In this document: in pieces, positions 1 to 14,115 of the stretch
Numbering within the stretch: the stretch's first letter is position 1
Layout of the letters: each line of letters starts with the position of its first letter
Source: a virus
Length of the DNA: 14,115 nucleotides
Virus genome (UHGV): UHGV-0305805
Strand: one strand, 5' to 3'
Notes under the pieces: model-generated
What the model saw: the letters and a program-made list of their open reading frames with translations, nothing else
What the model was told of the DNA's origin: nothing
Database searches by the model: none
Made by a program: the position numbers and the translations under genes

Positions 1-133
1 AACAGCATACAGAAGGGGCTTAAAAGCCCCTTTAGTGTTTTATGGGTGAAAAAATTATGAAGAGTATGGAAATCCGGTCATCGGAAATCACTACCAGCGG
101 AGCCGGTACGCTGACGGGCTACGTTGTTCGCTG
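1..133. repeat. Inverted repeat, left copy: exact reverse complement of 3003-3135
   Basis: Base-by-base comparison: 1-133 equals the reverse complement of 3003-3135, and identity stops at 134 (g versus t). It contains the palindromic hairpin GGGGCTTAAAAGCCCC (14-29) plus T-rich tract, and the first ~30 codons of the protease gene. Confidence 0.9.
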
Positions 134-614
134 GGATAAGCTTTCAGAACTGCTATGGGGGGAGTTTTACGAAAAATTCCAGCGGGGGGCGTTTACTGAG
201 TGGCTTGCGGCGGGTAATGACGTTCGCGGCCTGTATGAGCATGACCACAGCATGTTACTGGGGCGCACCCGTTCCGGCACGCTGAAACTGGAAGAGGACG
301 AAACAGGGTTACGCTTTGAACTGACCCCACCGGATACCAGTACAGGGCGCGACGTTATCGAACTGGTTAAGCGTGGGGACATCTCGGGGATGAGCTTTGG
401 CTTTCGCTCCCGTAAGGATGTATGGGATACCACAACAGATCCATGCGTGCGCACCGTGCTGGTGGCGGAACTGTACGAAATTACCGTTACATCGGTACCG
501 GCTTACCCCGATTCCGGCGTGGAGCTGGCCCGCCGTTCCCTGTATGAGCAGCACCCCGAAAAAATGCCGCGTGCGGATAATCGCCGCTGGTGGGTGGATT
601 TAGCGGGGGTGTGA
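42..614 (+). CDS. Prohead maturation protease, HK97 / S78 family
   Basis: 190-aa ORF with the conserved histidine context LYEHDHSMLLGRT and serine context DISGMSFGF typical of this protease family. Stop overlaps the portal start region. A likelier start is ATG at 57, preceded by GGGTGA. Confidence 0.85.
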   Translation: MGEKIMKSMEIRSSEITTSGAGTLTGYVVRWDKLSELLWGEFYEKFQRGAFTEWLAAGNDVRGLYEHDHSMLLGRTRSGTLKLEEDETGLRFELTPPDTSTGRDVIELVKRGDISGMSFGFRSRKDVWDTTTDPCVRTVLVAELYEITVTSVPAYPDSGVELARRSLYEQHPEKMPRADNRRWWVDLAGV

Positions 615-615
615 T

Positions 616-1827
616 ATGTGGCCTTTCAGAAGAAAAAAAGAGCAGCGCAGCATGACGCTGGATGAATTTATGGCGCTGGCTGGCACATCGAACACGGGGG
701 CGGGTGAGTACGTATCATCGGGGACAGCGGAATCACTGCCCGCCGTCATGAACGCCGTGACGGTCATCTCTGAGGCGGTGGCTACCATGCCGTGTTACCT
801 GTACCTGGTACGCAATGAGAAGGGGAAGGAGGCCCGCGAGTGGCTTGATTCTCATCCGGTCGATCACATCCTCAACGAGCGCCCGAACGCATGGCAAACC
901 CCCTACCAGTTTAAGCGAATGATGATCCGCCACTGCCTGTTAAACGGTAATGCTTATGCGGTGATTCAGTGGGGGCGTGATGGTTTTCCGGCGGCTTTAC
1001 ATCCTTACCCGCCGCAGTCGGTGAACGTGGAGCAGACAGGCGAACACAACTGGCGCTACTGCATCACTGACGCCTACACCGGAAACACCCGCAACTATTT
1101 ACCGTGGGAAGTACTTCACCTTCGTTACTCCACGGATGACGGCTTTATGGGGCGCTCACCTGTAACCATCTGCCGCGAATCGCTGGGGCTTGGGCTGGCC
1201 CAACAACGCCACGGCGCGAGCGTGATGCGTGATGGCATGATGGCGGCAGGGGTTATCACGTCAGGCGAATGGCTGGACGGCGTGAAGGGCAAACAGGCAT
1301 TAGCCGCACTGGAACGCTACAAAGGGGCCAGAAACGCCGGAAAAACGCCCATCCTTGAAGGGGGTATGAGCTATCAGCAGCTGGGCATGAGTAATCAGGA
1401 TGCTGAATGGCTGGCCTCCCGTCGCTTCACCATTGAAGACATCGCCCGAATGTTCAACGTCTCGCCGATTTTTTTGCAGGAATACAGCAACAGCACCTAC
1501 AGCAATTTCAGCGAGGCAAGCCGCGCATTTCTCACCATGACGATGCGCCCGTGGCTGGCGAACTTTGAGCAGCAGATAAAAAACGCCCTGCTGGTGGCCT
1601 CGCCTGTACCTGGTATCCGGTATCAGGTGGAGTTTGACAGCGCGGACCTGTTACGGGCCACACCTGGCGAACGCTTTGCCACCTATGAGCGCGGCATCAA
1701 ATCCGGCGTTATGTGTCCGAACGAAGCCCGCGAACGTGAAGGTCTGTCACCGCGTGATGGTGGTGATGAGTTCAGCCAGGCATGGAAACAGGAAGTAAAA
1801 ATCAGCGAGGGAGAAAAACCGGAATGA
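616..1827 (+). CDS. Phage portal protein (HK97-family-like)
   Basis: 403-aa ORF immediately after the protease and followed by head-completion genes; size and position fit a portal. Its stop overlaps the next start (ATGA). Confidence 0.75.
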   Translation: MWPFRRKKEQRSMTLDEFMALAGTSNTGAGEYVSSGTAESLPAVMNAVTVISEAVATMPCYLYLVRNEKGKEAREWLDSHPVDHILNERPNAWQTPYQFKRMMIRHCLLNGNAYAVIQWGRDGFPAALHPYPPQSVNVEQTGEHNWRYCITDAYTGNTRNYLPWEVLHLRYSTDDGFMGRSPVTICRESLGLGLAQQRHGASVMRDGMMAAGVITSGEWLDGVKGKQALAALERYKGARNAGKTPILEGGMSYQQLGMSNQDAEWLASRRFTIEDIARMFNVSPIFLQEYSNSTYSNFSEASRAFLTMTMRPWLANFEQQIKNALLVASPVPGIRYQVEFDSADLLRATPGERFATYERGIKSGVMCPNEAREREGLSPRDGGDEFSQAWKQEVKISEGEKPE

Positions 1828-2162
1828 ACATAGGGCGACTGCGTGACAGGATAACGATTCAGACCCTGAAACAGACCAGGGATATAACCGGCGAAATACT
1901 CGAAACGTGGGAGGACGGTCACACACTCTGGGCAAGCGTGAACATGGTCAGCAGCAAGGAGGCCATTTCATCGGGCGCAGAGCTGGCGATTGGTACCGTA
2001 AGGATCTGGATACGGTACCGGAAGGACATCAACGCCACCAGCCGGATAAAGGTCAGTACGGGGCCGCTGGCGGGGCGTGTACTGAATATCATCGGGCAGC
2101 CGCTGCCGGATGCCGCCAGGACACGCCTTGAAATTCTTTGTCGTGAGGGCGCGGAAAAATGA
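1824..2162 (+). CDS. Head closure / head-tail joining protein
   Basis: About 112 aa starting MNIGRLRDRITIQ at an ATGA overlap with the portal stop; contains an IRYRKDI-type motif common in head-tail joining proteins. The ORF track extends it to 1782. Confidence 0.6.
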   Translation: MNIGRLRDRITIQTLKQTRDITGEILETWEDGHTLWASVNMVSSKEAISSGAELAIGTVRIWIRYRKDINATSRIKVSTGPLAGRVLNIIGQPLPDAARTRLEILCREGAEK

Positions 2163-2455
2163 CAGAAGAACTTATCACCCTGGAAGAAGTGAAACTCCAT
2201 TGCCGCATCGATGGCGACGATGAAGACCAGTTAATCAGCGGATACATTGCCGCATCGCTTGAGGCGTGCCAGATACACATAGGCAGGCGCTTTGATGACG
2301 GGCTGGAGTTCACGCCAGCCATAAAGATTGGCTGCATGATGTTTATCGCTCACCTGTATGAAAATCGCCAGATTGTCGCGGATAACGCAAAAACACGCGT
2401 ACCCATGACGATAGGCGCACTCTGGACGGCTTACCGTGATGTGGGGGTGTACTGA
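2159..2455 (+). CDS. Head-tail connector (gp6-like DNA-packaging / connector protein)
   Basis: 98 aa; N-terminal ITLEEVKLHCRIDGDDEDQLI resembles the conserved N-terminus of gp6-type connectors. Translationally coupled on both sides. Confidence 0.65.
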   Translation: MTEELITLEEVKLHCRIDGDDEDQLISGYIAASLEACQIHIGRRFDDGLEFTPAIKIGCMMFIAHLYENRQIVADNAKTRVPMTIGALWTAYRDVGVY

Positions 2456-2895
2456 TGCCGTGGCAACCATTAAGACGATGCACAGAACCAGGCTGTAACA
2501 GGCGCGTTAAATCCGGCAAGTGTGAGGAGCACAGGCGGGCGGCATGGCGTGCAGAGGATGCCAGACGAGGACACCGCCGCGCGCGTGGATATTCCAGACA
2601 GTGGGACAAATACCGCGCCATGTATCTGAGTAAAAACCCGTTATGCGTGCGATGCCTTGAGAAGGGGATATATACGCCCGCCGTGGTGGTGGATCACATT
2701 ATCCCGATTAATGGCGGTGATGATGTTCTCTTCTGGCCCGAATGGAACCATCAACCATTGTGCCAGGCGTGTCATAACCAGAAAACGAAATGGCTTGATC
2801 CGGCAACAAAAAGCAAGCGTGCCGCAGGTGGATTTCGTGAAGAGGAAGAACGGGCCGCTAACCGCAATAACTGGATGTATGACGCTGATGAATGA
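2455..2895 (+). CDS. HNH endonuclease (packaging-associated)
   Basis: 146 aa with paired cysteine motifs (CTEPGCNRRV, CVRCLEKG) and the catalytic-type region VVDHIIPINGGDD...NHQPLCQACHNQKT. Confidence 0.85.
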   Translation: MPWQPLRRCTEPGCNRRVKSGKCEEHRRAAWRAEDARRGHRRARGYSRQWDKYRAMYLSKNPLCVRCLEKGIYTPAVVVDHIIPINGGDDVLFWPEWNHQPLCQACHNQKTKWLDPATKSKRAAGGFREEEERAANRNNWMYDADE

Positions 2896-3058
2896 GCGGG
2901 AACAAAACCGCCTTATCCGTGGACTTATAAGGCAGCGTGACGCATGGAAGACACAGGAAACAGGGCATAAAGATAAAGCGTCAGGACGCGCAGAACGCAT
3001 CACAGCGAACAACGTAGCCCGTCAGCGTACCGGCTCCGCTGGTAGTGATTTCCGATGA
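2888..3058 (+). CDS. Short ORF (56 aa) whose last 18 codons lie inside the inverted repeat; possible 5' remnant of a disrupted gene downstream of HNH
   Basis: ATG at 2888 overlaps the HNH stop. Codons 1-38 are unique sequence; the remainder is antisense of the protease 5' end supplied by the repeat. The longer 2657-3058 version in the ORF track overlaps HNH out of frame. Confidence 0.2.
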   Translation: MNEREQNRLIRGLIRQRDAWKTQETGHKDKASGRAERITANNVARQRTGSAGSDFR

Positions 3059-3135
3059 CCGGATTTCCATACTCTTCATAATTTTTTCACCCATAAAACA
3101 CTAAAGGGGCTTTTAAGCCCCTTCTGTATGCTGTT
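3003..3135. repeat. Inverted repeat, right copy: exact reverse complement of 1-133
   Basis: Same comparison as the left copy. The repeat ends one base short of the last capsid codon position (capsid stop is the complement of 3134-3136). Confidence 0.9.
3091..3121 (-). terminator. Intrinsic terminator after the capsid gene
   Basis: GC hairpin GGGGCTTTTAAGCCCC at 3106-3121; on the minus strand it is followed by TTTAGTGTTTT. A second copy sits at 14-39 inside the left repeat. Confidence 0.6.
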
Positions 3136-5549: not shown

Positions 5550-5597
5550 ATTTATTTTTACCCCCTCGTTTAAAAAGTTTTGAGTTGTGCCTCCCCT

Positions 5598-5824
5598 TGT
5601 CTACCTTATCTACCTTAGTGGCCCTCATACCAGTAATGGCGCGGCTTTCAGCGGGGTAGAGTGCTTTTATCCACTATCTACCCCGTGTCTACCTCCCTGT
5701 CTGATTCAGGTAAAATCAGGTAGAGAGGGTAGATAGTGGGTAGACAGTAAAAAAAGGTTATCTACCTAACTTAATGCACTGAATTAAATGTATTTTTCTT
5801 TACTCAGGTAGACAGGGTAGACAG
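5598..5824. repeat. Iteron array, putative origin of replication (GGTAGACAG family, both orientations, with an AT-rich tract)
   Basis: At least 11 copies of GGTAGA[C/G/T]AG or its complement at 5598-5614, 5653-5661, 5674-5693, 5719-5747 (three in tandem), 5758-5766 and 5807-5824 (two in tandem). AT-rich stretch at 5770-5805. Immediately downstream of the primase gene. Confidence 0.75.
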
Positions 5825-5837
5825 CAATTACAAAAAA

Positions 5838-7592
5838 TTATAAAAACGCGTCGCACTCGTCTGTTGTTATTGCGTTAGTCTGCGTTACTCCCTTAACTTT
5901 CCGCGTAATATATTCATGTCCGTAAACTTTCGCGGCTGGCTTCATAGCCTTGCCAAAGTCATTTACGTTTAGCGGTTTGCTCCTGCCTGCGTACGCCATA
6001 AACGCCAGATAGACGCGGTAAAGGCTGTTTCTGGTCGTGTACTTCACTGAATCGCCACCGCCGCCCATCATCAGGCCGCGTGCTTCCTCCAGAAAATTCA
6101 GGAACTGGCAAAACTCAATAACCGGATCCGTCTGTTGCTTTATTGCCAGAGCTTCATCACCGTCACGCTGTTCCAGTAGTAAAGCCCGTGCCTTCTCAGG
6201 GTCGGTAAAGTTCGCCAGCAATCGGCGGATAATGACAGGGATTTCAGCCGCGATCTTTTCCGGTAGCTCCCTGTCTTTTTCGGCCTCACTGACGATATTG
6301 TCGAAACGGAAAATCACGCGACGACGTGCCACACCTCCGGCCCGTTCGGTGAATATCATCGGGTTATTGTTGGTCGCCAGCACCACCGCCCTGATTACCG
6401 CCGTGAAACGCTTTTCGTATTTCGGGTTAATTTCCACGGGGTCACCGCCCGTGATTTTCTTGATGCCCGTTCCTTCGCCTGTATATTTCGGCTGGTCAGC
6501 CAGGACGATAAGACGACTCCCGACAACCTGCGCACGTCCACCAGCATCATCAAGCGATGTCATTTCAGCGCTTACCGTGTTCTGTTTCCCTGCCAGAAGG
6601 CTGGCTATGTGTGTGAATGTACTTTTACCGCTCCCGCCGTCTCCGGTGGCCTCAATAAACATCTGCCAGTCGTACCGGTTCGCCATAATCATGTACAGCG
6701 CGGCACATATACGCATCATCTTGCGCGGGTCTTTTCCGGCTGCGTGCTCAAGCCATTTATGAAAGTTTGGCGCGTTATCGCGGATGTTCTCCCCTGGTGC
6801 TGGTGGCGTGTACTCAATGCCGTTGTGCGTGGTGATCCAGTTCTCCGGCGTGTGCGGGGAAAATTCCCCCGTTTTCAGGTCAAGCGCACCATTGGCGAAC
6901 GGCAACAAATCGCCGGACGGCTCGCCCATTGGTTCGGCAATAACTTTTAACGCTTCCACGGCGTTATTGATTACGCGCTTGCTGAAAGTGGCCCTGTGCT
7001 CTGAATAGATCGCCACCATTTCGCGGCTAAGTTCCATTGTGCTGACCGGACACCATACCCCGCCGCGCCATACGTGAACGATTTCACTTTCAGGATGTAC
7101 GCAAACGCCATCAAAGCGATCGGCAAGCAGCTGCGCGCGCTCACTGTCCGCCATCTGCGAAAGTTGCGCCTTTTGCTTTACCGGAAGCTCAATGACCAGA
7201 CCATCAGAAAGATTCTGGCGCTCACGGGCCAGATATTCGCGCCAGTTCTCCACCTTCTGACCGTGCATACCATCAGGGTAAAAATTTGCATCCTGTACGC
7301 CTGCCGCCGCCAGCTTCTGACCAATCGCCTTTATCATTACTGGCGCAAGATATCCGGCCCTGAATATGCGCACGGATTTTCTGCCTTCCGGCACAATTTG
7401 CAGCTTATCCAGTTCGGATAACTGCTGCTCCCCAAGCCACACAGGAGGCTCATTATCTCCGGCCATACGCGCGTCATGTTCCTGCCATTGTTTTGCGTGT
7501 GACCAGGCATCACTACCCGCAAAAATAATGACTTCTGTTTCTTTGTGTTTTATGCCGCGTGACTGCTGTTTTACGTTCGGTGCCAGTTTCAT
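5838..7592 (-). CDS. Primase / replicative helicase, P4-alpha-like
   Basis: 584 aa; Walker A GDGGSGKST and Walker B-like LIVLADQP in the C-terminal half, with a primase-like N-terminal half. Start overlaps the upstream ORF stop (ATGA). Confidence 0.85.
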   Translation of the reverse strand: MKLAPNVKQQSRGIKHKETEVIIFAGSDAWSHAKQWQEHDARMAGDNEPPVWLGEQQLSELDKLQIVPEGRKSVRIFRAGYLAPVMIKAIGQKLAAAGVQDANFYPDGMHGQKVENWREYLARERQNLSDGLVIELPVKQKAQLSQMADSERAQLLADRFDGVCVHPESEIVHVWRGGVWCPVSTMELSREMVAIYSEHRATFSKRVINNAVEALKVIAEPMGEPSGDLLPFANGALDLKTGEFSPHTPENWITTHNGIEYTPPAPGENIRDNAPNFHKWLEHAAGKDPRKMMRICAALYMIMANRYDWQMFIEATGDGGSGKSTFTHIASLLAGKQNTVSAEMTSLDDAGGRAQVVGSRLIVLADQPKYTGEGTGIKKITGGDPVEINPKYEKRFTAVIRAVVLATNNNPMIFTERAGGVARRRVIFRFDNIVSEAEKDRELPEKIAAEIPVIIRRLLANFTDPEKARALLLEQRDGDEALAIKQQTDPVIEFCQFLNFLEEARGLMMGGGGDSVKYTTRNSLYRVYLAFMAYAGRSKPLNVNDFGKAMKPAAKVYGHEYITRKVKGVTQTNAITTDECDAFL

Positions 7593-7888
7593 TTTTTACC
7601 CCTGAATCCGTTAATCATGGTTTTCAGCTTCTGGATGTTTGCCCGTGCCCTGGCGTTGCTGGTGGACACGTTATGCGGCGCGGTCTGTACCAGAGAAAAA
7701 TCACGCCGGAACTGATAAACAGGCATCACGCAATCATATTCGTAACCTTCACGGCGGTAGGTTACGCGCCGTTCTTCCACGCCCTTAATCATTACCGTGC
7801 CGCCGTACTGGTCGCGGTAAATATCGCCGCGCGTAAATTTAGGGTGAGTGTTGCCACTGGCAGTTAAGCCAGAATATTTAAGTTTCAT
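7589..7888 (-). CDS. Hypothetical protein (99 aa), translationally coupled to the primase
   Basis: ATG at 7886-7888; stop overlaps the primase start. Confidence 0.55.
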   Translation of the reverse strand: MKLKYSGLTASGNTHPKFTRGDIYRDQYGGTVMIKGVEERRVTYRREGYEYDCVMPVYQFRRDFSLVQTAPHNVSTSNARARANIQKLKTMINGFRGKK

Positions 7889-7893
7889 TATTT

Positions 7894-8127
7894 TTATTCT
7901 CCGGTGTGCTGTTCTTTATATCTGTCGTGCAATAGATCTATTTCTTGCAGTTCCATTATTACAGGCTCAAGAAGCGTTATTAATGCCGTGGCAATTCTTG
8001 ATTTTTGTTTGTCGCGTTCATTGTCGCCAAGTGTTTCAAGCCATATGCGCAATATTTCCAGCATGTTTTCACTGTGAGAAAGTGCAAGAAATGCGCGGTC
8101 TATTGTTTCGTGGTAAATATCACGCAT
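7894..8127 (-). CDS. Hypothetical protein (77 aa)
   Basis: ATG with GAGGA upstream; overlaps the stop of the upstream ORF by 8 nt. Confidence 0.55.
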   Translation of the reverse strand: MRDIYHETIDRAFLALSHSENMLEILRIWLETLGDNERDKQKSRIATALITLLEPVIMELQEIDLLHDRYKEQHTGE

Positions 8128-8353
8128 GGCTTACATCCTCAGGAAATTTTCTTCTATAACGCGCCTCTGCCACATATTCCGCATAATCGGCGGCGATATT
8201 CAGTACATCAAGCCCCGTTGATTTATATTCTCTCGTGGAAAGTAAGAAAAAAGCCGCTCTAATAAGTTCTGGCATTGACGAAAGCGCATCAGCCGCATCA
8301 TCAGGAACGCCGGAAAATTCCTGTTTCAGGGAATTAAAACGATCATCACGCAT
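8120..8353 (-). CDS. Hypothetical protein (77 aa)
   Basis: ATG with GGGGGG upstream; 8-nt overlap with the upstream ORF. Confidence 0.55.
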   Translation of the reverse strand: MRDDRFNSLKQEFSGVPDDAADALSSMPELIRAAFFLLSTREYKSTGLDVLNIAADYAEYVAEARYRRKFPEDVSHA

Positions 8354-8711
8354 GTTTACCCCCCTGAATGACCTGATAACCGCAACTGGTCAGCAACTCG
8401 ATAAATTCCGGCAGTGTGCCGAAACAGCAATCATCACGCAGCCGTTCACAGGATACCTCGACGCCGTTTTCGTAGTGACTCACCATACATCCGGTAAAAT
8501 GCAGATCATCATCGTGATGGCTCGTTGACGGCTTAATCAGTCGCGCACGTTCCGCCAGTTCCAGCAATGCTTCAACGCTTCCGGCAATTGCACCATCCGG
8601 CAGGTGATAATTACGCACTATGCGCCCGTTCTCCACATTGACCAGCAACTGCCCGGTAAATTTCTCATCAAACTGAATGCTGTTAAGGTCAGAAATTGAC
8701 AGATTATGCAT
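8346..8711 (-). CDS. Hypothetical protein (121 aa)
   Basis: ATG at 8709-8711 preceded by a perfect AGGAGG at about 6-nt spacing. The ORF track extends it to 8729. Confidence 0.6.
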   Translation of the reverse strand: MHNLSISDLNSIQFDEKFTGQLLVNVENGRIVRNYHLPDGAIAGSVEALLELAERARLIKPSTSHHDDDLHFTGCMVSHYENGVEVSCERLRDDCCFGTLPEFIELLTSCGYQVIQGGKHA

Positions 8712-8928
8712 GGTGCACCTCCTGCACATCAGCCATGATAATTTTTCCGGCCTTATCCAGTGCCTGATCGGCTTTTAGCTGCACAAATGCTAAATAATGG
8801 AAGATGCATTCTGATTCTCTGGCTGCGTGTTTATGCGCCCTGTCAGCAATAACAGAAATATCAATAAGCGCGTGCATCAGCGTAGTGAGCGCGGCGGCGG
8901 CTGCGTCCGGTGTGGTTTTATTGCACAT
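8704..8928 (-). CDS. Hypothetical protein (74 aa)
   Basis: ATG at 8926-8928 preceded by GGAGGGG. The ORF track extends it to 8982. Confidence 0.5.
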   Translation of the reverse strand: MCNKTTPDAAAAALTTLMHALIDISVIADRAHKHAARESECIFHYLAFVQLKADQALDKAGKIIMADVQEVHHA

Positions 8929-9148
8929 GTACCCCTCCGCATTTTTTTTCGTTAGAAATAAGCGTTCTTCTTTCCTGTTCATCGCTCAGGAATACGCAGA
9001 CCTCACCGCTAAGGCGTTTAAGTAAGCCGATGATTGCCCCTGATTCGCTGTCGGTCATCATGCCAGGGTAATCCTCTGCCAGTGCGCAAATAACTTCGAT
9101 TTGGTGGGCGCGTTCTGCTGCCTGTTGTAGTGTGATTTCCTGGCTCAT
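8918..9148 (-). CDS. Hypothetical protein (76 aa)
   Basis: ATG at 9146-9148 preceded by GGGGGTAGG; ATGA overlap with the upstream ORF. Confidence 0.55.
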   Translation of the reverse strand: MSQEITLQQAAERAHQIEVICALAEDYPGMMTDSESGAIIGLLKRLSGEVCVFLSDEQERRTLISNEKKCGGVHVQ

Positions 9149-9345
9149 AAGCCTACCCCCTGACGAATACGGGCAGCAAATACCATCACGCAGCCAGCCG
9201 GAGATTGCTGGCGTGCTTCCTGTTCGCTGGTGGCCTCAATGGTAATCACGCGCGGTTGTGCCGTGCTCAGGGCGATAAAACGCCAGATGTATTTATTCAG
9301 GTTGTGCGAGTCCCGCCCTTGCGGGTGTGTGGTATGATTTCTCAT
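9145..9345 (-). CDS. Hypothetical protein (66 aa), first gene of the leftward operon
   Basis: ATG at 9343-9345 preceded by GAGGTAG. It is the C-terminal part of a 340-aa ORF in the track that I regard as spurious upstream of this start. Confidence 0.5.
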   Translation of the reverse strand: MRNHTTHPQGRDSHNLNKYIWRFIALSTAQPRVITIEATSEQEARQQSPAGCVMVFAARIRQGVGL

Positions 9346-9441
9346 AGCTACCTCGATACTTTCGCTATCGTTGGTGGTTAGAAGCCCGGTTAGTGTTAGC
9401 GCACTGCCGGGTTTCGTCGTTTCTGCACCTTGCGCCAACAA

Positions 9442-9495
9442 GGTGTTGAACACCAATTTAAACCCAGGTGTTAAACACGTCAAGTGTTGAACACT
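9442..9495. promoter_or_regulatory. Three palindromic operator-like sites, GTGTT-N-AACAC, between divergent promoters
   Basis: GGTGTTGAACACC at 9442-9454, GTGTTAAACAC at 9468-9478, AGTGTTGAACACT at 9483-9495; centres 25 and 16 bp apart. The third overlaps a -35-like TTGAAC for the rightward gene. Confidence 0.6.
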
Positions 9496-9544
9496 TATTT
9501 TTTTTCCTGCATACTGCATTTGTTTTTTATGAGGGGTACACCAC

Positions 9545-9724
9545 ATGGCGACAAAAGCGGTAAACGCAAAATCACAAACCGTTGCGGCAAGGGTTCCGCA
9601 TGAAGTTATGAACAATGTTGAGGCGGTAAAAATGCCTGGCGAAAGTACGGGGCAATTTGTTACTGCGGCATTAAAACGAGAAGTTGAATATCGCCAGCGG
9701 CGCAAGGCCAAAGAACCAGAGTAA
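9545..9724 (+). CDS. Ribbon-helix-helix (Arc/CopG-like) DNA-binding protein, candidate repressor
   Basis: 59 aa, ATG preceded by GAGGGG at 8-nt spacing. Sequence fits a beta-strand (TVAARVPHEV) followed by two helices; basic C-terminus. Below the 60-aa cutoff of the ORF track. Confidence 0.55.
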   Translation: MATKAVNAKSQTVAARVPHEVMNNVEAVKMPGESTGQFVTAALKREVEYRQRRKAKEPE

Positions 9725-9781
9725 TCACCATCAGCGCCGTGGTGTAAGGTATTACGGCGCATTGCTATGCAGGACAACACA

Positions 9782-9955
9782 ATGACCGATAAAGAATTGA
9801 CCAAAACATTATCACCGGCACGGAAAAGACGGCGCAGAAAGATAGAGCATGAATCAGAAAGATTCGCGCCATGTGCTTTTGCCCTTGAGCAATTCCTTAA
9901 AGAGTACAGGGAAAAGCGCTCATTGCAGGTATGGCAACGAACTGAACCAGACTGA
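9782..9955 (+). CDS. Small basic protein (57 aa), possibly co-transcribed with the ribbon-helix-helix gene
   Basis: ATG at 9782 with AGGA about 9 nt upstream; arginine/lysine-rich (ARKRRRRKIEHE). Coding status uncertain. Confidence 0.3.
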   Translation: MTDKELTKTLSPARKRRRRKIEHESERFAPCAFALEQFLKEYREKRSLQVWQRTEPD

Positions 9956-10050
9956 TTGCATTGCCCACCAGCCTGATAACGGCTATCATCCCCGTGCTTA
10001 TGTTTGGGATCACACACACAAACGGCGCAGCGGGTTATCTGTTCAGAAAG

Positions 10051-10078
10051 GCGGCTCCATTTCGGGGCCGCTTTTTTT
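10051..10078 (+). terminator. Intrinsic terminator ending the rightward transcript
   Basis: GCGGCTCC-attc-GGGGCCGC followed by seven T. Confidence 0.65.
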
Positions 10079-10224
10079 ATACCTGAAAAACCCCAATTTT
10101 GTTGTTTTTCAGTTTCACCAGGGCGAACGAATCCCCGCCCACGTTCTGGCGTATATTCAATCTTCATGGTTATAGCTCTGTGTTCAGATGATTGATGTGT
10201 GGCGGCTGCGTGCCGCCAGCGTGA

Positions 10225-10413
10225 TTAATGAACTGCCTTGCAGCTATCCTTCCAGGCCAGAACCTCGGATAAAGACCAGCCAACGGAACGACCGCCAAGT
10301 TTACGACGTGATGGGAATTGTCCGGCCTTTTCCAGGCGGTAGCGACACGTACGGCTAAGGCCGGTTAGTTTTTCGCATTCTTTTTCACGTATAAACCGAT
10401 CAGTGCTTAACAC
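10225..10413 (-). CDS. alpA: AlpA-family phage regulatory protein (helix-turn-helix activator)
   Basis: Contains EKLTGLSRTCRYRLEKAGQFPSRRKLGGRSVGWSLSEVLAW, matching the AlpA helix-turn-helix signature. Likely start is GTG at 10411-10413 preceded by AGGGGGG; the ORF track extends it to 10494 with a TTG start. Confidence 0.8.
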   Translation of the reverse strand: MLSTDRFIREKECEKLTGLSRTCRYRLEKAGQFPSRRKLGGRSVGWSLSEVLAWKDSCKAVH

Positions 10414-10778: not shown

Positions 10779-12008
10779 TTATTTTCTTCTGGCTACGGGT
10801 AGCGTGGTTACGTTTTCATGTGTTCCCGCCAGTATCCCTAACCGCTCCGTCCACATATCCAGCGCATTGCGTTTCGCATCCAGATAACGGGAATGATTAT
10901 AAACTCGCTGCATTCCTGGCATCTGGTGGCCTGTAAGCTGCTCCACGACATGCGGATCAACGCCTAAATCGTTCAGCATGGTTGTAAAGGTGCGCCGGAT
11001 GTCATGCAGTGACCAGTGAGGGTGATTAAGCCTCCTGTACGCTAATCTTCCATACTGCGATACGCTGGCCTCCTGTTTCACTTCCCCCAGCAATAAGCCC
11101 GTGTGCCTGTTCTGCTCCACCAGCTGCGTGACGAACGGCAGGATCGCTTCCGGTATGGGCCGGAATATTGCGACCTTCGTTTTGCTGTGCTCCTTCGGAA
11201 CGGTCCATAGCATTTCCGTAAAATCCCACTCCCCGATCTCCGATAACCTCAGTTCTACCGTTCTGGCTCCGAAGACAATCAGGAGGCGGATTAACGCGAC
11301 GTAGTAAGGGGAGAATATTTTTTTGTCCAGTGCCTGCAATAATTCGCCAAGTTCTTTGTTACTTAAGACACGTTCGCTTATATCCGGTTTTTTCCCAACG
11401 TCCGCAACGTTCAGATCGTCCAGAACGTTGCTGATTGCATAGCGCCGCCTACGGCAGAACTTAAGCGCCTGTTTGCACGCCTGTAGCACGAATCCGGCAG
11501 TAACAGGCGTTCGCTTTGCCACCTGGTCAAAACAGGCCAGCCAGTGCCGTAGCTCGCATTTATCCAGCGGCATAGCACCAATCTGCTGTATTACGTGATT
11601 ATTAAGTCGCCTTTTCAGGGCGATATAATCCACGCGGTTTTCCTTTACGTAATACTCAAGCCAGTAGGTGAGCGCATCGCCAACCGTTACGGGCTTTAAC
11701 GCTTCCTGTACGGTGTAATTCATCTCATGACGTGGATTTTTCCCCTCAGCCAGCCATGTGCGACACTGTGCGGCTTTTTCCCTGGCTGCTTTCAGGCTCA
11801 GATCAGGATAACTTCCCAGCTTAATGCGTTCGGGTCGTGTCTCCCTTCCCGTTCCGGCCCTGTATGTGAAATACCAGGTCAATTTCCCTGATGTTAAATA
11901 TTTCACGCTCAGGTTTCCGCCATCACTATAAAACGTGTTTTTCTCCGCTGGCTTACCATGAAGTTTCCTTAGCAAGGTATCGCTCAGTTTGTTCATTGCT
12001 CTGCTCAC
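10779..12008 (-). CDS. int: Tyrosine recombinase / integrase, P4-like
   Basis: 409 aa with catalytic-region motifs ARTVELR, HDIRRTF and a C-terminal YNHSRYLD tyrosine context. Start could be GTG at 12008 or ATG at 11996. Confidence 0.9.
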   Translation of the reverse strand: MSRAMNKLSDTLLRKLHGKPAEKNTFYSDGGNLSVKYLTSGKLTWYFTYRAGTGRETRPERIKLGSYPDLSLKAAREKAAQCRTWLAEGKNPRHEMNYTVQEALKPVTVGDALTYWLEYYVKENRVDYIALKRRLNNHVIQQIGAMPLDKCELRHWLACFDQVAKRTPVTAGFVLQACKQALKFCRRRRYAISNVLDDLNVADVGKKPDISERVLSNKELGELLQALDKKIFSPYYVALIRLLIVFGARTVELRLSEIGEWDFTEMLWTVPKEHSKTKVAIFRPIPEAILPFVTQLVEQNRHTGLLLGEVKQEASVSQYGRLAYRRLNHPHWSLHDIRRTFTTMLNDLGVDPHVVEQLTGHQMPGMQRVYNHSRYLDAKRNALDMWTERLGILAGTHENVTTLPVARRK

Positions 12009-12056: not shown

Positions 12057-12266
12057 ATCGTTGCACAAAGGGCTACAACGTGAAACAAGCTGGAACAAGG
12101 AAAATCACAAATCTGTTGATAATCAAAAACATAATGCACAGCCTGAAACATTATGAAACAGCAAAAAACACTAAATGATAAAATGCTGTTATATATAACT
12201 TATTTCGCATAACACATTGATTTAATTAAATAATTAACACCGCAAAAAGTGCCAAAAATCGCAAAA

Positions 12267-12289
12267 TGACTACACCAGTGACTACACCG
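12267..12289. repeat. 23-bp direct repeat, copy 2, followed by CAACGTGGAACAA (12309-12321)
   Basis: Exact match to copy 1. The 210 bp between the two copies is strongly AT-rich. Confidence 0.8.
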
Positions 12290-12551
12290 TTCGGTGCACT
12301 GTATGAAACAACGTGGAACAAATAGACACAAGAAATATACAGGCGGATCATCTTTCCAGGGGGAAGCACACCAATTCATGAGGGGCGTTAATGTCGATAT
12401 GGGGATCCCCACCTACCGGAATTTTTTTCCGGTTAAACGTTAATCAGGCTGGTGGGCTTTACCTGTTCGGTAGGTGTTATGATTATCGTAATACCTTTCC
12501 CCCAATGGGGTAAAAGCATCAACCGTAACGAAAGTCGTTATGGTTGCCACT

Positions 12552-12662
12552 GATACCCCAAATTTGGGTATCACGAGTAAGCCCCAAAATCTGGGTGTTA
12601 CTCTTACTACCCAAACTACGGGTAGTTTCCGTAGTTTCATGGTCGAGTTGCAGATCTGCAAC
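12552..12662. repeat. Cluster of four palindromes/hairpins in a gene-free region
   Basis: GATACCCCAAATTTGGGTATC (12552-12572); a CCCAAA...GGG unit near 12582-12597; ACTACCC-aaactac-GGGTAGT (12606-12626); perfect palindrome GTTGCAGATCTGCAAC (12647-12662). The first three share a CCCAAA-N-GGG(T) core spaced about 26 bp. Confidence 0.5.
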
Positions 12663-12918
12663 TCCCCCATTAACCACAGGCGAATTTCCGCCTTCGGTCA
12701 TTCCTTAATCATCTGCGTAATCATAATGATTATTCAGCAAGCGCAATTTTGCGCTTTGCTTAAAGTTCAGCGAGTTACCGCGCCGACTTCCTCAAATTGA
12801 GGTTTCCGAAAATATCAGCGGGTTAGCGATTAAGCTGACCATTAATTAAACTGCGAAAATGTCGTAGTTGTGAGGGGTGTAGCCAACCCATTTTTGGGCC
12901 GTCGGGAATATCAACCAG

Positions 12919-13200
12919 TTACCGCCGCAACCGCTCCGGCTTCTTCCAGTGGTACGTTATTTTCTCCTTCTCCCGATACATCTCCACGCGGCGACGGTAG
13001 GCCAGCAACTCAAGAACTCTGGTTCGTATGTTGCGCATATCCACGCCATTAAGTTCTATACCATCACGGCGCATCACCTCAGCAACAACACGCGCATAGT
13101 TTTCGGCTGTCACGCTGTCCGGCTGCGTGGCCTGTTCGTCAGCCTGCTGGCTGATTCCGGCAACGCGGCGGATTAATCCCGTTATTTCGGCTTCTGTCAT
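12919..13200 (-). CDS. Hypothetical protein (93 aa) downstream of the terminase fragment
   Basis: ATG at 13198-13200 with GAGG 8 nt upstream; starts 11 nt after the terminase-fragment stop; composition is protein-like. Confidence 0.5.
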   Translation of the reverse strand: MTEAEITGLIRRVAGISQQADEQATQPDSVTAENYARVVAEVMRRDGIELNGVDMRNIRTRVLELLAYRRRVEMYREKEKITYHWKKPERLRR

Positions 13201-13213
13201 GCTGCTGACCTCA

Positions 13214-13963
13214 TTACACCCCGCTAAATTCTTCCAGTTTCTGGCGGTGGCTGTCGCTTATATCAAAAGCAAAATCCTCATGCTCTGCCTGGAATGTACC
13301 AAACGCCATCAGCGCCGCCACGCTCGGGTCTATCTTGTTCGGTGATTTTTTCTTGTTCGGCTTGATATTGGCGTTCGCGTCACTCTGCATCACGACGTTA
13401 CTCATCGACCAGGACAACACCGGATCGCCACGATGCACAATCACCCTGCGGTTAACAAAAACTTCGAACGATTTCGCCGCCGGACTGAATCTGAGGTAGG
13501 TTTGCGGGAACGGCTCCACCTCAAAACCTGCCCCCTGTAATTGCGTTCTGAGATGCGTGGCGTTCCACGTATCAAAGCCCACCAGCCTGATATTAAATTT
13601 CTCCGCGTCCTGCATGATGTCATCTCTGATCCGGTCGTAATCAATGCAGTCGCCAGGCGTTGTGCGTATCCAGCCTGCTTTAGCCCACTGACGATAGATG
13701 GCGCGGTTTTTATTGGCGGGGTTCTGTAGCTGAAATTCCGGCAGATAGTGACGGGAAACCAGCATAATGGTTTTACCGACCGGAAAGGCATAGCACACGC
13801 TGGAAATATCGCTGGTTGATGATAAGTCCAGCCCCGCGTAACACTCCTGGCCGTGTAAATCTTCCTCCGTGAACGTTCCGGCACACTCAGCCCATGCGCC
13901 GTTACCCATCCACGGGGTAGCCCCCTGGCACCAGATATTAAATCGCTTTGTCATCATCTCCAC
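13214..13963 (-). CDS. Terminase large subunit, C-terminal nuclease domain only (N-terminal ATPase absent; truncated or rearranged)
   Basis: 249 aa with acidic nuclease-type motifs YAGLDLSSTSD, LVGFDTWN and KIDPSVAALMAF. No Walker A. The reading frame upstream is closed by a stop about 12 codons before the start, and the start lies inside an inverted repeat. Confidence 0.65.
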   Translation of the reverse strand: MEMMTKRFNIWCQGATPWMGNGAWAECAGTFTEEDLHGQECYAGLDLSSTSDISSVCYAFPVGKTIMLVSRHYLPEFQLQNPANKNRAIYRQWAKAGWIRTTPGDCIDYDRIRDDIMQDAEKFNIRLVGFDTWNATHLRTQLQGAGFEVEPFPQTYLRFSPAAKSFEVFVNRRVIVHRGDPVLSWSMSNVVMQSDANANIKPNKKKSPNKIDPSVAALMAFGTFQAEHEDFAFDISDSHRQKLEEFSGV

Positions 13964-13979
13964 CCACTGCGACGGAATA
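13922..13979. repeat. Inverted repeat, inner copy: reverse complement of 14058-14115, the last bases of the window
   Basis: Exact 58-bp match separated by a 78-bp spacer (13980-14057). The outer copy runs off the window, so the repeat may be longer. Confidence 0.9.
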
Positions 13980-14057
13980 GTGGATAAAGGCGAACCCTAA
14001 TATTGATGTTTCCGTCGATCGTGAAAAACTGGCCTCAACCATCCAGAAAGCGCGGGG

Positions 14058-14115
14058 TATTCCGTCGCAGTGGGTGGAGATGATGACAAAGCGATTTAAT
14101 ATCTGGTGCCAGGGG
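14058..14115. repeat. Inverted repeat, outer copy; the plus strand here reads the sense start of the terminase fragment (…IPSQWVEMMTKRFNIWCQG)
   Basis: Reverse complement of 13922-13979; the reading frame continues off the window. Confidence 0.9.

What the first reader, a model, noticed from the sequence alone, without database searches (positions are those of the whole stretch)
7589..9345. Accessory operon of seven small overlapping ORFs between the switch and the primase
Seven ORFs (66-121 aa) are packed with 4-11-nt start/stop overlaps and each has a recognisable ribosome-binding site, so they are very likely expressed as one unit with the primase. None shows a motif I recognise. In satellites this position often carries helper-interference, anti-defence or defence cargo, making these the most likely place for an undescribed function in the window.
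Basis: inference. Interest (0 to 1): 0.65.

Follow-up and report, generated by a model that had tools for sequence, protein, structure and literature searches.

The report
Early operon of an E. coli phage satellite
The seven small genes are real and form the early operon of a known capsid-forming E. coli phage satellite (cf-PICI). It opens with a cell-division-inhibitor-like gene and ends with the known regulator RgdR, so it is mostly conserved backbone rather than novel cargo, although five of the genes still have no known function.

Summary
Seven minus-strand ORFs (66, 76, 74, 121, 77, 77 and 99 aa) run from 9345 to 7589 into the primase. Their junctions overlap by 4, 11, 8, 8 and 8 nt, then comes one 5-nt gap, then a 4-nt overlap with the primase. 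Each has a Shine-Dalgarno sequence, and all are under purifying selection (dN/dS 0.05-0.31).

The window is an E. coli capsid-forming PICI of the EcCIED1a/EcCIEDL933 type. The finding's region is 100% identical in many complete genomes.

[quoted passage not shown] ORF1 is an orthologue of RgdR (DUF4222, RGD motif intact), a studied regulator of LEE and motility.
- **Backbone, not cargo.** In 80 related loci chosen by RgdR similarity, ORF2, usually ORF3, an ORF5-type gene and Icd-like recur whichever replication gene follows. Only ORF4 and ORF6 are facultative.
- **No defence match.** There are no PADLOC hits and no solved-structure relatives.
- **Published precedent.** A six-gene operon in ECOR61 that I infer to be equivalent (Icd-like to primase) causes growth arrest when a phage accessory gene is expressed.

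ORF2-6 are acidic and, where searched (ORF2, ORF4, ORF6), found almost only in E. coli; their function is unknown. The more novel features lie just upstream: a candidate cis-antisense sRNA over the Icd-like ribosome-binding site, and three operators that co-vary with the divergent YlcI-type gene.

The parts
9145..9345 (-). ORF7: Icd-like protein, 66 aa, basic (pI 10.7). First gene of the operon and the likely toxic effector.
   Evidence: NCBIfam NF033153 E 1.4e-19, 69.9 bits against cut-off 25. [quoted passage not shown] At least three allele classes, about 50% identical to each other.
8918..9148 (-). ORF6: 76 aa, acidic, function unknown. Facultative cassette.
   Evidence: phrog_1478 E 2.9e-28. 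22 homologues; every source name given is E. coli. Present in only a subset of loci, with either Icd class. About 50% identical to the 63-aa gene of the EDL933-type operon, whose ECOR61 counterpart I infer to be a Tn5 suppressor hit.
8704..8928 (-). ORF5: 74 aa, function unknown. Member of a multi-allele family.
   Evidence: phrog_5146 E 2.2e-44 on residues 19-92 of the longer ORF, which fixes the start at 8928; PGAP uses the same start. Alleles 30-100% identical occur in most loci. dN/dS 0.30.
8346..8711 (-). ORF4: 121 aa, acidic. Internal tandem duplication of a unit of about 45 aa. Facultative cassette.
   Evidence: phrog_340 in two stretches. The two halves align at E 9e-6. The low-confidence AF2 model shows a beta-beta-alpha unit twice. 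Single-unit 83-aa variants exist. Homologues carry only E. coli or Salmonella names. Found only alongside class-1 Icd alleles.
8120..8353 (-). ORF3: 77 aa, acidic, function unknown. Near-constant member of the operon.
   Evidence: phrog_24341 E 1.8e-41, and the C-terminal half of phrog_2512. Present in most of the 80 related loci. dN/dS 0.13. Natural in-frame ORF4-ORF3 fusions of 196 aa exist.
7894..8127 (-). ORF2: 77 aa, acidic, function unknown. Near-constant member; very narrow family.
   Evidence: phrog_2196 E 8.4e-42. Detected in most loci by tblastn; ORF clustering places an ORF2-family gene in every synteny string listed. Only 9 cluster representatives among 1.84 billion proteins. dN/dS 0.31.
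7589..7888 (-). ORF1: RgdR orthologue (DUF4222), 99 aa, basic (pI 10.2). Last gene; overlaps the primase start by ATGA.
5838..7592 (-). Replication gene: D5_N / DUF5906 / P4-family primase C-terminal type, 584 aa.
   Evidence: Pfam and NCBIfam hits. Related loci carry a RepA-helicase or a DUF927 gene here instead, behind the same RgdR.
9455..9483 (-). Sigma-70-like promoter of the operon: TTGACG, 17 nt, TAAATT.
   Evidence: Consensus scan only. It is bracketed by the three operator copies.
9441..9494 (.). Three copies of the near-palindrome (A/G)GTGTT(G/A)AACAC, overlapping the -35, the spacer and the +1 of the promoter. Putative operators.
   Evidence: the repeat finder family D1. Three copies in 11 of 11 loci whose YlcI is at least 95% identical, and none in 45 loci with a diverged YlcI.
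9346..9424 (+). Candidate cis-antisense sRNA of about 79 nt, complementary to the leader and Shine-Dalgarno of the Icd-like gene. Its extended -10 (TGGTATGAT) lies at 9330-9338.
   Evidence: Weak Rfam SymR match, 33.3 bits, E 0.004, below the gathering score of 61. MFE -35.1 kcal/mol, z -4.68. Terminator hairpin 98.3% paired, with 8 of 13 pairs compensatory and 0 of 500 shuffles as good. Its frequent G-U pairs fit the + strand only. No expression data.
9545..9724 (+). Divergent YlcI/YnfO-family gene, 59 aa. Candidate repressor of the operon.
   Evidence: NF041551 E 2.1e-16. Its allele co-varies with the operator sequence. A ribbon-helix-helix fold is my reading of the sequence and was not tested.
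10225..10413 (-). AlpA-family regulator, the activator of the PICI cycle in related islands.
   Evidence: PF05930 E 5.4e-17. AlpA activates downstream genes and the island cycle in EcCICFT073 and EcCIEDL933.
5593..5830 (.). Origin-like iteron field, GGTAGA(C/T)A repeats in both orientations, just downstream of the primase.
   Evidence: the repeat finder families D1-D6 and 22 inverted pairs. GC falls to 0.42 here. Assignment as the origin is by analogy with PICIs.

Best explanation
The seven ORFs are the promoter-proximal part of the early operon of an E. coli capsid-forming PICI. The same operon continues into the primase and ends at the origin.

**Control (inferred).** A sigma-70-type promoter at 9483-9455 is overlapped by three operators that match the allele of the divergent YlcI-type gene. 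AlpA, switched on by a helper phage, activates the island cycle. A cis-antisense sRNA (about 9346-9424, + strand) covers the ribosome-binding site of the first gene. This would keep the toxic Icd-like protein silent, and possibly the translationally coupled genes behind it.

**When induced (inferred).** Icd-like arrests cell division. The small acidic proteins ORF2-6 act on host or helper targets that are still unknown. They sit in a cassette array that recombines at near-identical ATGCRTRA start/stop junctions. RgdR, a small Tudor/KOW-like barrel with a basic helix that binds DNA non-specifically, alters transcription. The primase then replicates the island.

**Consequence.** If a phage protein triggers the operon without productive helper exploitation, the result looks like abortive infection or programmed cell death.

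**Shown here:** gene structure, selection, family membership of ORF1 and ORF7, conservation and mosaic pattern, operator/YlcI co-variation, and RNA hairpin covariation. **Inferred:** co-transcription, every protein function, and expression of the sRNA.
For: - **Island identity.** int, alpA, primase, SSB, PerC, capsid, protease, portal, connectors, HNH, TerS and TerL sit on the identical sequence in strain C7. The ED1a-type element is inserted at ydgG/tqsA.
- **Gene layout and coupling.**. No internal terminator-like site.
- **Purifying selection** on all seven ORFs.
- **Family assignments.** ORF7 Icd-like. ORF1 DUF4222/RgdR, with published LEE1 activation, motility repression and non-specific DNA binding. 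RgdR is reported in all analysed E. coli PICIs.
- **Backbone pattern.** In 80 related loci the same genes recur with three different replication genes.
- **Same design in other genera.** Icd-like, then small ORFs, then primase in Klebsiella-, Serratia- and Morganella-type elements, but with unrelated small ORFs.
- **AlpA as activator,** and growth and viability loss on uncontrolled island replication after AlpA over-expression.
- **ECOR61.** Six linked genes from Icd-like to the primase are needed for phage-gene-triggered death, and Icd-like is required. The two adjacent suppressor genes have the same lengths (192 and 186 nt) and the same 8-nt and 1-nt overlaps as in the EDL933-type operon L005.
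- **Operators** co-vary with YlcI.
- **Antisense RNA.**
Against: - No transcript data exist for this island, so the promoter, the operon extent and the sRNA are all predictions.
- The 80 loci were retrieved by RgdR similarity (at least 85% identity). The constancy of RgdR is therefore by construction, and the sample is E. coli-centred.
- The ECOR61 locus could not be fetched. Equating it with a PICI operon rests on matching gene sizes, overlaps and annotation. Its Icd-like gene is annotated longer (366 nt) than the L005 one.
- Silas et al. did not test ORF2-5 homologues of this allele.
- Icd-like membership is by HMM only. tblastn against phage records found no phage P1 record.
- The fold matches for RgdR are generic small barrels (no Foldseek hit at E <= 0.001).
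- RgdR has phenotypes in uninduced EHEC cultures. That implies expression independent of island induction, possibly from an internal promoter.
Confidence: 0.68

Rival explanations
1. The array is primarily anti-phage defence or abortive-infection cargo. The small variable proteins sense phage proteins and Icd-like executes growth arrest to protect the population.
For: The ECOR61 operon of the same design kills or arrests cells when the T7-group accessory gene orf24 is expressed, and was described as a superinfection-exclusion system. Cassette content and alleles are mosaic. ORF2-6 are small, acidic and lineage-restricted, as many phage-host conflict proteins are.
Against: No PADLOC model matches. 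ORF2, ORF3 and RgdR are near-constant, not hotspot-like. The presumed immune hotspots of cf-PICIs lie around the packaging module. The ECOR61 phenotype is equally explained by orf24 acting as an inducer of the satellite, because AlpA-driven island replication alone impairs growth and viability. The primase was needed for the phenotype, which fits induction plus replication better than a dedicated sensor-effector pair.
Confidence: 0.18
2. The small proteins, above all RgdR and ORF2/ORF3, are replication accessory factors that work with whichever initiator follows them, for example in origin remodelling or in loading or recruiting host replisome parts.
Against: RgdR's published phenotypes are transcriptional: LEE1 promoter activity and motility. 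The other-genus islands and P4-like elements examined have unrelated small ORFs or fewer of them in front of homologous primases, so these proteins are not needed by this primase family in general. No sequence or fold match to known loaders.
Confidence: 0.12
3. They are moron-type host regulators kept for the benefit of the bacterium, in virulence or motility control, and are not part of the satellite life cycle.
For: RgdR activates LEE1/ler and type III secretion and represses motility, and deleting OI-51 lowers sheep colonisation. The island also carries a PerC-family regulator. A promoter-like site with a TG-extended -10 lies inside ORF2 at 7983-7955, upstream of rgdR.
Against: The same genes occur in many strains from varied sources (LEE status not checked), and ED1a, which carries this element type, is called commensal. 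They lie inside a coupled operon leading into the primase. Position 20 of the 'RGD' motif varies (R, P, N, C, H, S) among homologues. Nothing is known for ORF2-6.
Confidence: 0.08
4. Some of the seven are chance ORFs and not genes.
For: They are short. Five have no Pfam or NCBIfam family. The AF2 model of the ORF4-ORF3 fusion is of low confidence.
Against: dN/dS is 0.05-0.31 for every one. PHROG matches are strong. Starts, Shine-Dalgarno sequences and junctions are conserved. PGAP calls all seven independently.
Confidence: 0.01

Closest known systems
EcCIEDL933 / CP-933C (O-island 51, Sp7) and EcCIED1a: the prototype E. coli cf-PICI and a related E. coli PICI, carrying rgdR and its ED1a homologue
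   Same: Same element type and gene order: int, alpA, Icd-like, small ORFs, RgdR, replication gene, SSB, PerC, and in EcCIEDL933 the capsid/packaging module. The ED1a element sits at the same ydgD-ydgG (tqsA) site. RgdR is 79% identical to the gene PGAP names rgdR in the EDL933-type locus L005, with RGD kept.
   Different: The EDL933-type operon has four genes between alpA's neighbour and rgdR (Icd-like class 2, 61 aa, 63 aa, 80 aa) and a DUF927 replication gene. This window has six genes before rgdR, a D5-type primase, and a divergent YlcI gene with operators in place of the 247-aa ORF downstream of alpA.
ECOR61 'prophage-encoded superinfection exclusion / PCD system' (Silas et al., bioRxiv 10.1101/2023.04.06.535777)
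   Same: Six linked genes from an Icd-like gene to a DNA primase. The 186-nt and 192-nt genes next to Icd-like have the same sizes and the same 8-nt and 1-nt overlaps as in the EDL933-type operon. The 63-aa gene is about 50% identical to ORF6, and the 80-aa gene clusters with the ORF2 family.
   Different: Different alleles and cassette set: no ORF3, ORF4 or ORF5 homologue detected in the EDL933-type locus used as proxy. [quoted passage not shown] The authors did not call it a satellite. The trigger (orf24) has not been tested on this allele. Homology is inferred, because the ECOR61 contig could not be read here.
Left (early) operon of satellite phage P4: kil/eta, cI RNA, epsilon, orf151, alpha primase (established knowledge; P4-like example, ECOR15 P4)
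   Same: Works alike in layout: a lethal or Icd-like first gene, a small regulatory RNA at the 5' end, small helper- or host-directed proteins, then the primase. PGAP annotates an Icd-like gene between alpA and the primase in the ECOR15 P4 prophage.
   Different: No match to the Rfam C4/CI RNA family. No Ash or other P4-protein Pfam hit. The RNA here is cis-antisense, not processed from the sense leader. The primase lacks the long P4 alpha N-terminus seen in Morganella locus L004 (584 against 794 aa).
Phage P1 immI operon: c4 antisense RNA, icd, ant (established knowledge)
   Same: An Icd-family first gene whose expression is held down by a small antisense RNA that acts at its ribosome-binding region.
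   Different: No C4 RNA match. tblastn against phage records found no phage P1 record at E <= 0.01. No ant gene follows.
SymE/SymR type I toxin-antitoxin (Rfam RF01809), for the candidate sRNA only
   Same: A two-hairpin RNA of about 77-79 nt that starts next to the target's start codon and covers its Shine-Dalgarno sequence. Similar linker and terminator loop (alignment).
   Different: Score 33.3 bits against a gathering score of 61. The target is an Icd-like protein, not SymE.

Membership tests
Capsid-forming PICI (cf-PICI) | int, alpA and pri/rep in PICI order at one end | tested here: met
   Integrase 10779-12008, AlpA (PF05930) 10225-10413, P4-family/D5 primase 5838-7592.
Capsid-forming PICI (cf-PICI) | Own capsid, protease, portal, connectors and TerS/TerL | tested here: met
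   All are annotated on the identical island in strain C7, and none of the genes listed for the C7 locus is annotated as a tail or lysis gene. In the window itself TerS and part of TerL are missing and a 3-kb block is inverted. Island boundaries were not mapped here.
Capsid-forming PICI (cf-PICI) | Helper-dependent induction through AlpA, and use of helper tails | not testable with these tools
   Known only from experiments on EcCIEDL933.
Icd-like protein (NCBIfam NF033153) | HMM score above the curated cut-off | tested here: met
   69.9 bits against 25, residues 19-62.
Icd-like protein (NCBIfam NF033153) | Inhibits host cell division | not testable with these tools
   Indirect only: the Icd-like gene is required for growth arrest in ECOR61.
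RgdR / DUF4222 | PF13973 domain above the gathering score | tested here: met
   85.7 bits against 27.
RgdR / DUF4222 | RGD tripeptide (R20) needed for activity | tested here: met
   The sequence reads ...KFTRGDIYRD..., with R20-G21-D22. The R20C variant ECED1_1787 is inactive. Position 20 varies among homologues.
RgdR / DUF4222 | Activates LEE1 and represses motility | not testable with these tools
   Published for ECs1581 and c1493 only.
Known anti-phage defence systems (PADLOC-DB 2.0) | Match to any defence-system protein model | tested here: not met
   No hit at E <= 0.1 for any of the seven ORFs, YlcI or the 92-aa gene.
SymR antitoxin RNA (RF01809) | Covariance-model score at or above the gathering threshold | tested here: not met
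   33.3 bits against 61, E 0.004.
SymR antitoxin RNA (RF01809) | Target gene is symE | tested here: not met
   The target is the Icd-like ORF.
P1/P4 C4-CI immunity RNA (Rfam C4 family) | Covariance-model match in the leader | tested here: not met
   The only Rfam hit at E <= 1 in the whole window was SymR.
P4 left-operon proteins (Ash/Eta, epsilon, orf151) | Sequence-family match of the small ORFs | tested here: not met
   No Pfam hit other than DUF4222 at E <= 0.1. P4 proteins themselves were not compared directly.

The most novel reading that the evidence does not exclude
The Icd-like to primase operon may be a general phage-sensing switch of enterobacterial satellites. Under this reading:
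- Specific phage proteins, such as orf24 in ECOR61, trigger it.
- The shuffling acidic cassettes ORF2-6 set which phages or host targets are engaged.
- Icd-like executes the arrest.
- A previously undescribed family of cis-antisense sRNAs sets the threshold. Their kissing-type loop is hypervariable and their stem is invariant. Together with allele-matched YlcI operators, they keep the up to six related islands in one genome from cross-activating each other.

The published 'superinfection exclusion system' would then really be satellite induction.
Probability: 0.22. Interest if true: 0.7.

Novelty: new member of a known kind. Interest (0 to 1): 0.4.

Why it matters
E. coli PICIs and cf-PICIs are widespread: sequences from this operon occur in about a third of complete E. 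coli genomes. Yet the genes between alpA and the replication gene have been left as white boxes.

Recognising the array as a semi-conserved early operon connects three separate literatures: EHEC virulence regulation by RgdR, PICI biology, and phage accessory-gene-triggered cell death. The operon starts with an Icd-like toxin, ends with RgdR, and I infer it to be of the same type as the ECOR61 cell-death locus.

This suggests concrete tests of how Gram-negative satellites sense phages and take over the cell. The candidate antisense RNA and the allele-matched operators would give the first picture of how such an island keeps its toxic early operon silent.

Tried and rejected
- **Phage records.** blastn (distant mode) of the array and tblastn of RgdR against 50,697 phage records gave no match. 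The genes are therefore not shared with sequenced true phages. Icd-like hit only one 16.5-kb 'phage', which is itself cf-PICI-like.
- **Solved structures.** Sequence search for all seven ORFs returned only chance-level hits: designed armadillo repeats, a hydrophobin, DnaJC8.
- **Defence models.** PADLOC gave nothing.
- **AF2 of the natural ORF4-ORF3 fusion (P0008).** Mean pLDDT 48, so it was not used for a fold search.
- **ORF4/ORF5 and ORF2/ORF3 as paralogues,** as the phrog_2512 matches suggested. BLASTP finds no similarity. I treat phrog_2512 as a heterogeneous family of fusions.
- **GTDB genome scan with the primase.** Only 3 loci were returned, so cross-genus comparison is thin.
- **PGAP's longer Icd-like start (9546) and its second 'Icd-like pseudogene' (9720-10167).** The long start lies upstream of the predicted promoter. 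The 340-aa ORF runs antisense through ylcI. Other genomes annotate the 66-aa form.
- **ECOR61 contig.** It could not be fetched with the available collections.

Full report
**What the window is.** The region 7400-9800 is 100% identical to many complete E. coli chromosomes. In strain C7, NCBI's annotation of the identical sequence reads as follows: integrase, an HTH/AlpA regulator, a divergent YlcI/YnfO gene, an Icd-like gene, five hypotheticals, a DUF4222 gene, a DNA primase, a hypothetical, SSB, a PerC-family regulator, then major capsid, prohead protease, portal, head closure, connector, HNH, TerS and TerL. The whole element is inserted in tqsA. This is the gene set of a capsid-forming PICI, as described for EcCIEDL933. 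The related ED1a element was mapped to the same ydgD-ydgG (tqsA) site. Pfam and NCBIfam confirm AlpA (PF05930) and a D5_N/DUF5906/P4-family primase.

**Checking the observation.** All seven ORFs are present on the minus strand with ATG starts and Shine-Dalgarno sequences. ORF1 overlaps the primase by 4 nt. ORF5 is 74 aa, not the 92-aa longest ORF; both PGAP and the PHROG match support the shorter start. Three of the junctions share the motif ATGC(G/A)T(G/A)A.

I took alleles from 87 related loci and calculated pairwise dN/dS:

| Gene | dN/dS |
|---|---|
| Icd-like (ORF7) | 0.19 |
| ORF6 | 0.29 |
| ORF5 | 0.30 |
| ORF4 | 0.05 |
| ORF3 | 0.13 |
| ORF2 | 0.31 |
| RgdR (ORF1) | 0.26 |
| primase | 0.10 |
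| SSB | 0.14 |

These are real genes. The values for ORF4 and ORF6 rest on few alleles. The simple scan finds no terminator-like site on the minus strand inside the array. Co-transcription remains an inference.

**Two of the seven are not unknown.** ORF7 matches NCBIfam 'phage_ICD_like' at 69.9 bits against a cut-off of 25. ORF1 matches DUF4222 at 85.7 bits against 27. In an EDL933-type island, PGAP names the orthologue rgdR.

RgdR (ECs1581) was identified in O-island 51/CP-933C. It activates the LEE1 promoter and type III secretion and represses motility. It binds DNA without specificity in EMSA, and it needs R20 of an RGD motif. The window's protein has R20-G21-D22. [quoted passage not shown]

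**The five unknowns.**
- ORF2-6 are acidic to near-neutral (pI 4.8-6.3), whereas Icd-like and RgdR are basic.
- They match only 'unknown function' PHROGs.
- They have no Pfam or NCBIfam family, no PADLOC match and no relative among solved structures.
- The families searched are very narrow. ORF2 has 9 cluster representatives among 1.84 billion proteins. ORF4 has 70 hits whose source names are only E. coli or Salmonella. ORF6 has 22 hits whose source names are all E. coli.
- ORF4 is an internal duplication of a unit of about 45 aa (halves align at E 9e-6). Single-unit 83-aa variants exist.
- In-frame ORF4-ORF3 fusions of 196 aa occur in many assemblies, seemingly through a one-base change at the G-run that serves as ORF3's Shine-Dalgarno. 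All 16 loci with this junction in my set have the unfused six-G form.
- The AF2 model of the fusion was too poor to use (pLDDT 48).

**Backbone or cargo?** I fetched 80 IMG/VR loci by RgdR similarity and scored each window gene in them.
- ORF2 is detected in most by tblastn, and ORF clustering finds an ORF2-family gene in every synteny string listed. ORF3 is in most. An ORF5-type gene, in many alleles, and an Icd-like gene, in at least three allele classes about 50% identical to each other, are in nearly all that reach that far.
- The 92-aa gene and SSB follow the replication gene.
- This holds whether the replication gene is the D5-type primase, a RepA-family helicase or a DUF927 protein.
- Only ORF4 (always with class-1 Icd) and ORF6 (with either Icd class) are facultative.

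Because the loci were chosen through RgdR, its constancy is by construction. The co-occurrence of the other genes is a real observation. He et al. place the presumed immune-system hotspots of cf-PICIs before and after the packaging operon, and name only the gene downstream of alpA as another variable spot.

Outside E. coli the design persists but the genes do not. A Klebsiella-type 16.5-kb 'phage' (vB_KppS-Ant) has an Icd-like domain, two unrelated small ORFs, then the primase. A Serratia island and a Morganella P4-like element look similar.

**A published phenotype for this kind of operon.** Silas et al. (bioRxiv 10.1101/2023.04.06.535777) found that a phage accessory gene, orf24, kills ECOR61. 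This gene lies in the same accessory region as ocr.
- Tn5 suppressors mapped to an Icd-like gene and two adjacent hypothetical genes of 186 and 192 nt.
- Removing the Icd-like gene abolished it.

The two gene lengths and the 8-nt and 1-nt overlaps are the same as in the EDL933-type operon L005. That operon has exactly six genes: Icd-like, 61 aa, 63 aa, 80 aa, rgdR and the DUF927 primase. The 63-aa gene is about 50% identical to ORF6, and the 80-aa gene clusters with ORF2.

I therefore infer that the ECOR61 'prophage superinfection-exclusion system' is a PICI early operon. Over-expression of AlpA alone causes uncontrolled island replication that harms growth and viability. A simpler reading of that phenotype is that orf24 induces the satellite. 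I could not fetch the ECOR61 contig, so this link is inferred.

**How the operon is probably controlled.** These features lie just outside the finding.
- **Promoter and operators.** A promoter-like site (TTGACG, 17 nt, TAAATT; 9483-9455) is overlapped by three copies of (A/G)GTGTT(G/A)AACAC. All three copies are present in 11 of 11 loci whose YlcI is at least 95% identical to the window's. They are absent from all 45 loci with diverged YlcI alleles, whichever Icd class follows. That pattern is what a cognate repressor and its operators would show.
- **Antisense RNA.** On the + strand, an extended -10 (TGGTATGAT, 9330-9338) lies 7 nt before position 9346. A weak Rfam SymR match begins exactly there (33.3 bits, E 0.004, below the gathering score). 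The 79-nt sequence folds at -35.1 kcal/mol (z -4.68) into a 5' stem-loop and a terminator hairpin followed by a U-rich tail.
- **Covariation.** Across 23 distinct leader variants the terminator hairpin is 98.3% paired. Eight of its 13 pairs show compensatory double changes. No shuffle out of 500 reaches this, and slid registers give 39-57% pairing. Its many G-U pairs would be A·C mismatches on the sense strand, so the structure is selected on the antisense strand.
- **Conserved -10.** The -10 lies inside icd codons 3-6 and is kept at nucleotide level between the two main Icd classes, which are only about 50% identical in protein. A third class lacks this design.
- **Variable loop.** In class-1 leaders the 5' hairpin has an invariant stem (CGAUA/UAUCG) and a 7-nt loop with at least seven variants. 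Antisense systems that begin with loop-loop contact show this pattern. Up to six related islands occur in one genome, which would favour such divergence.
- No expression data exist for any of this.

**Verdict.** The array is the semi-conserved early operon of a known satellite family. It begins with a toxic Icd-like gene and ends with the known regulator RgdR. It is not a cargo hotspot. Five members remain functionally blank, and I infer that an operon of the same type carries a documented phage-triggered growth-arrest phenotype. I rate it a new member of a known kind, of moderate interest. The most promising new material is the candidate antisense RNA and the allele-matched operators at its 5' end.

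Noticed in passing
window 9330-9424 (+ strand): Candidate cis-antisense sRNA of about 79 nt opposite the leader and Shine-Dalgarno of the Icd-like gene. It has an extended -10, a weak SymR-like Rfam match, a strongly covarying terminator whose G-U pairs fit only the + strand, and a 5' hairpin with an invariant stem and a hypervariable 7-nt loop. Rfam has no family that reaches threshold for it.
   Followed up: partly
window 9441-9494 and 9545-9724: Three near-palindromic operators, (A/G)GTGTT(G/A)AACAC, overlap the operon promoter. They are present only where the divergent YlcI/YnfO gene is the same allele: 11 of 11 loci against 0 of 45. The YlcI/YnfO family has no assigned function, and this points to a repressor role.
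   Followed up: partly
window 9424-9443: Inverted repeat CACCTTG-N6-CAAGGTG at about +5 to +25 of the predicted mRNA. The arms are conserved and the spacer varies among alleles. It could be a protein-binding site or a 5' RNA hairpin.
   Followed up: no
window 1-3135 and 12184-14115: The window is not colinear with any complete E. coli genome. Positions 1-3009 are the reverse complement of the protease-to-HNH block. A 137-bp inverted duplication lies at 1-137 and 2999-3135, and 0 of 534 matching genomes span this junction. The integrase end is joined to the TerL end, as in a tandem or circular form (matched only in strain EC444). The last 136 nt fold back on TerL sequence, and about 1.4 kb (TerS and part of TerL) is missing. 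This may be an assembly artefact or a real rearrangement; the finding's region is unaffected.
   Followed up: partly
window 5593-5830: Dense field of GGTAGA(C/T)A iterons in both orientations in a low-GC gap just after the primase. Probably the island's replication origin.
   Followed up: partly
window 8346-8711 and the junction at about 8353-8360: ORF4 is a tandem duplication of a unit of about 45 aa, and single-unit variants exist. Some public assemblies carry an in-frame 196-aa ORF4-ORF3 fusion at the six-G run before ORF3's start, consistent with one G fewer. This could be homopolymer sequencing error or real length variation.
   Followed up: partly
window 9720-10167 (-) and 9767-9955 (+): PGAP's second 'Icd-like pseudogene' and the 340-aa ORF 9145-10167 run antisense through ylcI and look like artefacts. 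The first ~137 residues equal the start of a 247-aa 'hypothetical' downstream of alpA in EDL933-type islands. A 62-aa basic ORF follows ylcI on the + strand and has no family match.
   Followed up: no
window 7955-7983 (- strand, inside ORF2): Promoter-like site with a TG-extended -10, about 70 nt upstream of rgdR. It could explain the RgdR phenotypes seen in uninduced EHEC cultures. Consensus match only.
   Followed up: no
L088 (LR881103.1, 'Escherichia phage vB_KppS-Ant', 16,548 bp): This record, deposited as a phage from an induced prophage, has the gene content of a cf-PICI-like satellite (int, regulator, Icd-like domain, two small ORFs, primase, capsid, portal, connectors, TerS/TerL), plus one gene annotated as tape measure.
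   Followed up: partly
ORF1 residue 20 (window about 7829-7831): Among 120 RgdR homologues, position 20 of the 'RGD' motif is R, P, N, C, H or S, while G21-D22 are invariant. The published activity-defining arginine is therefore not a family-wide feature.
   Followed up: partly
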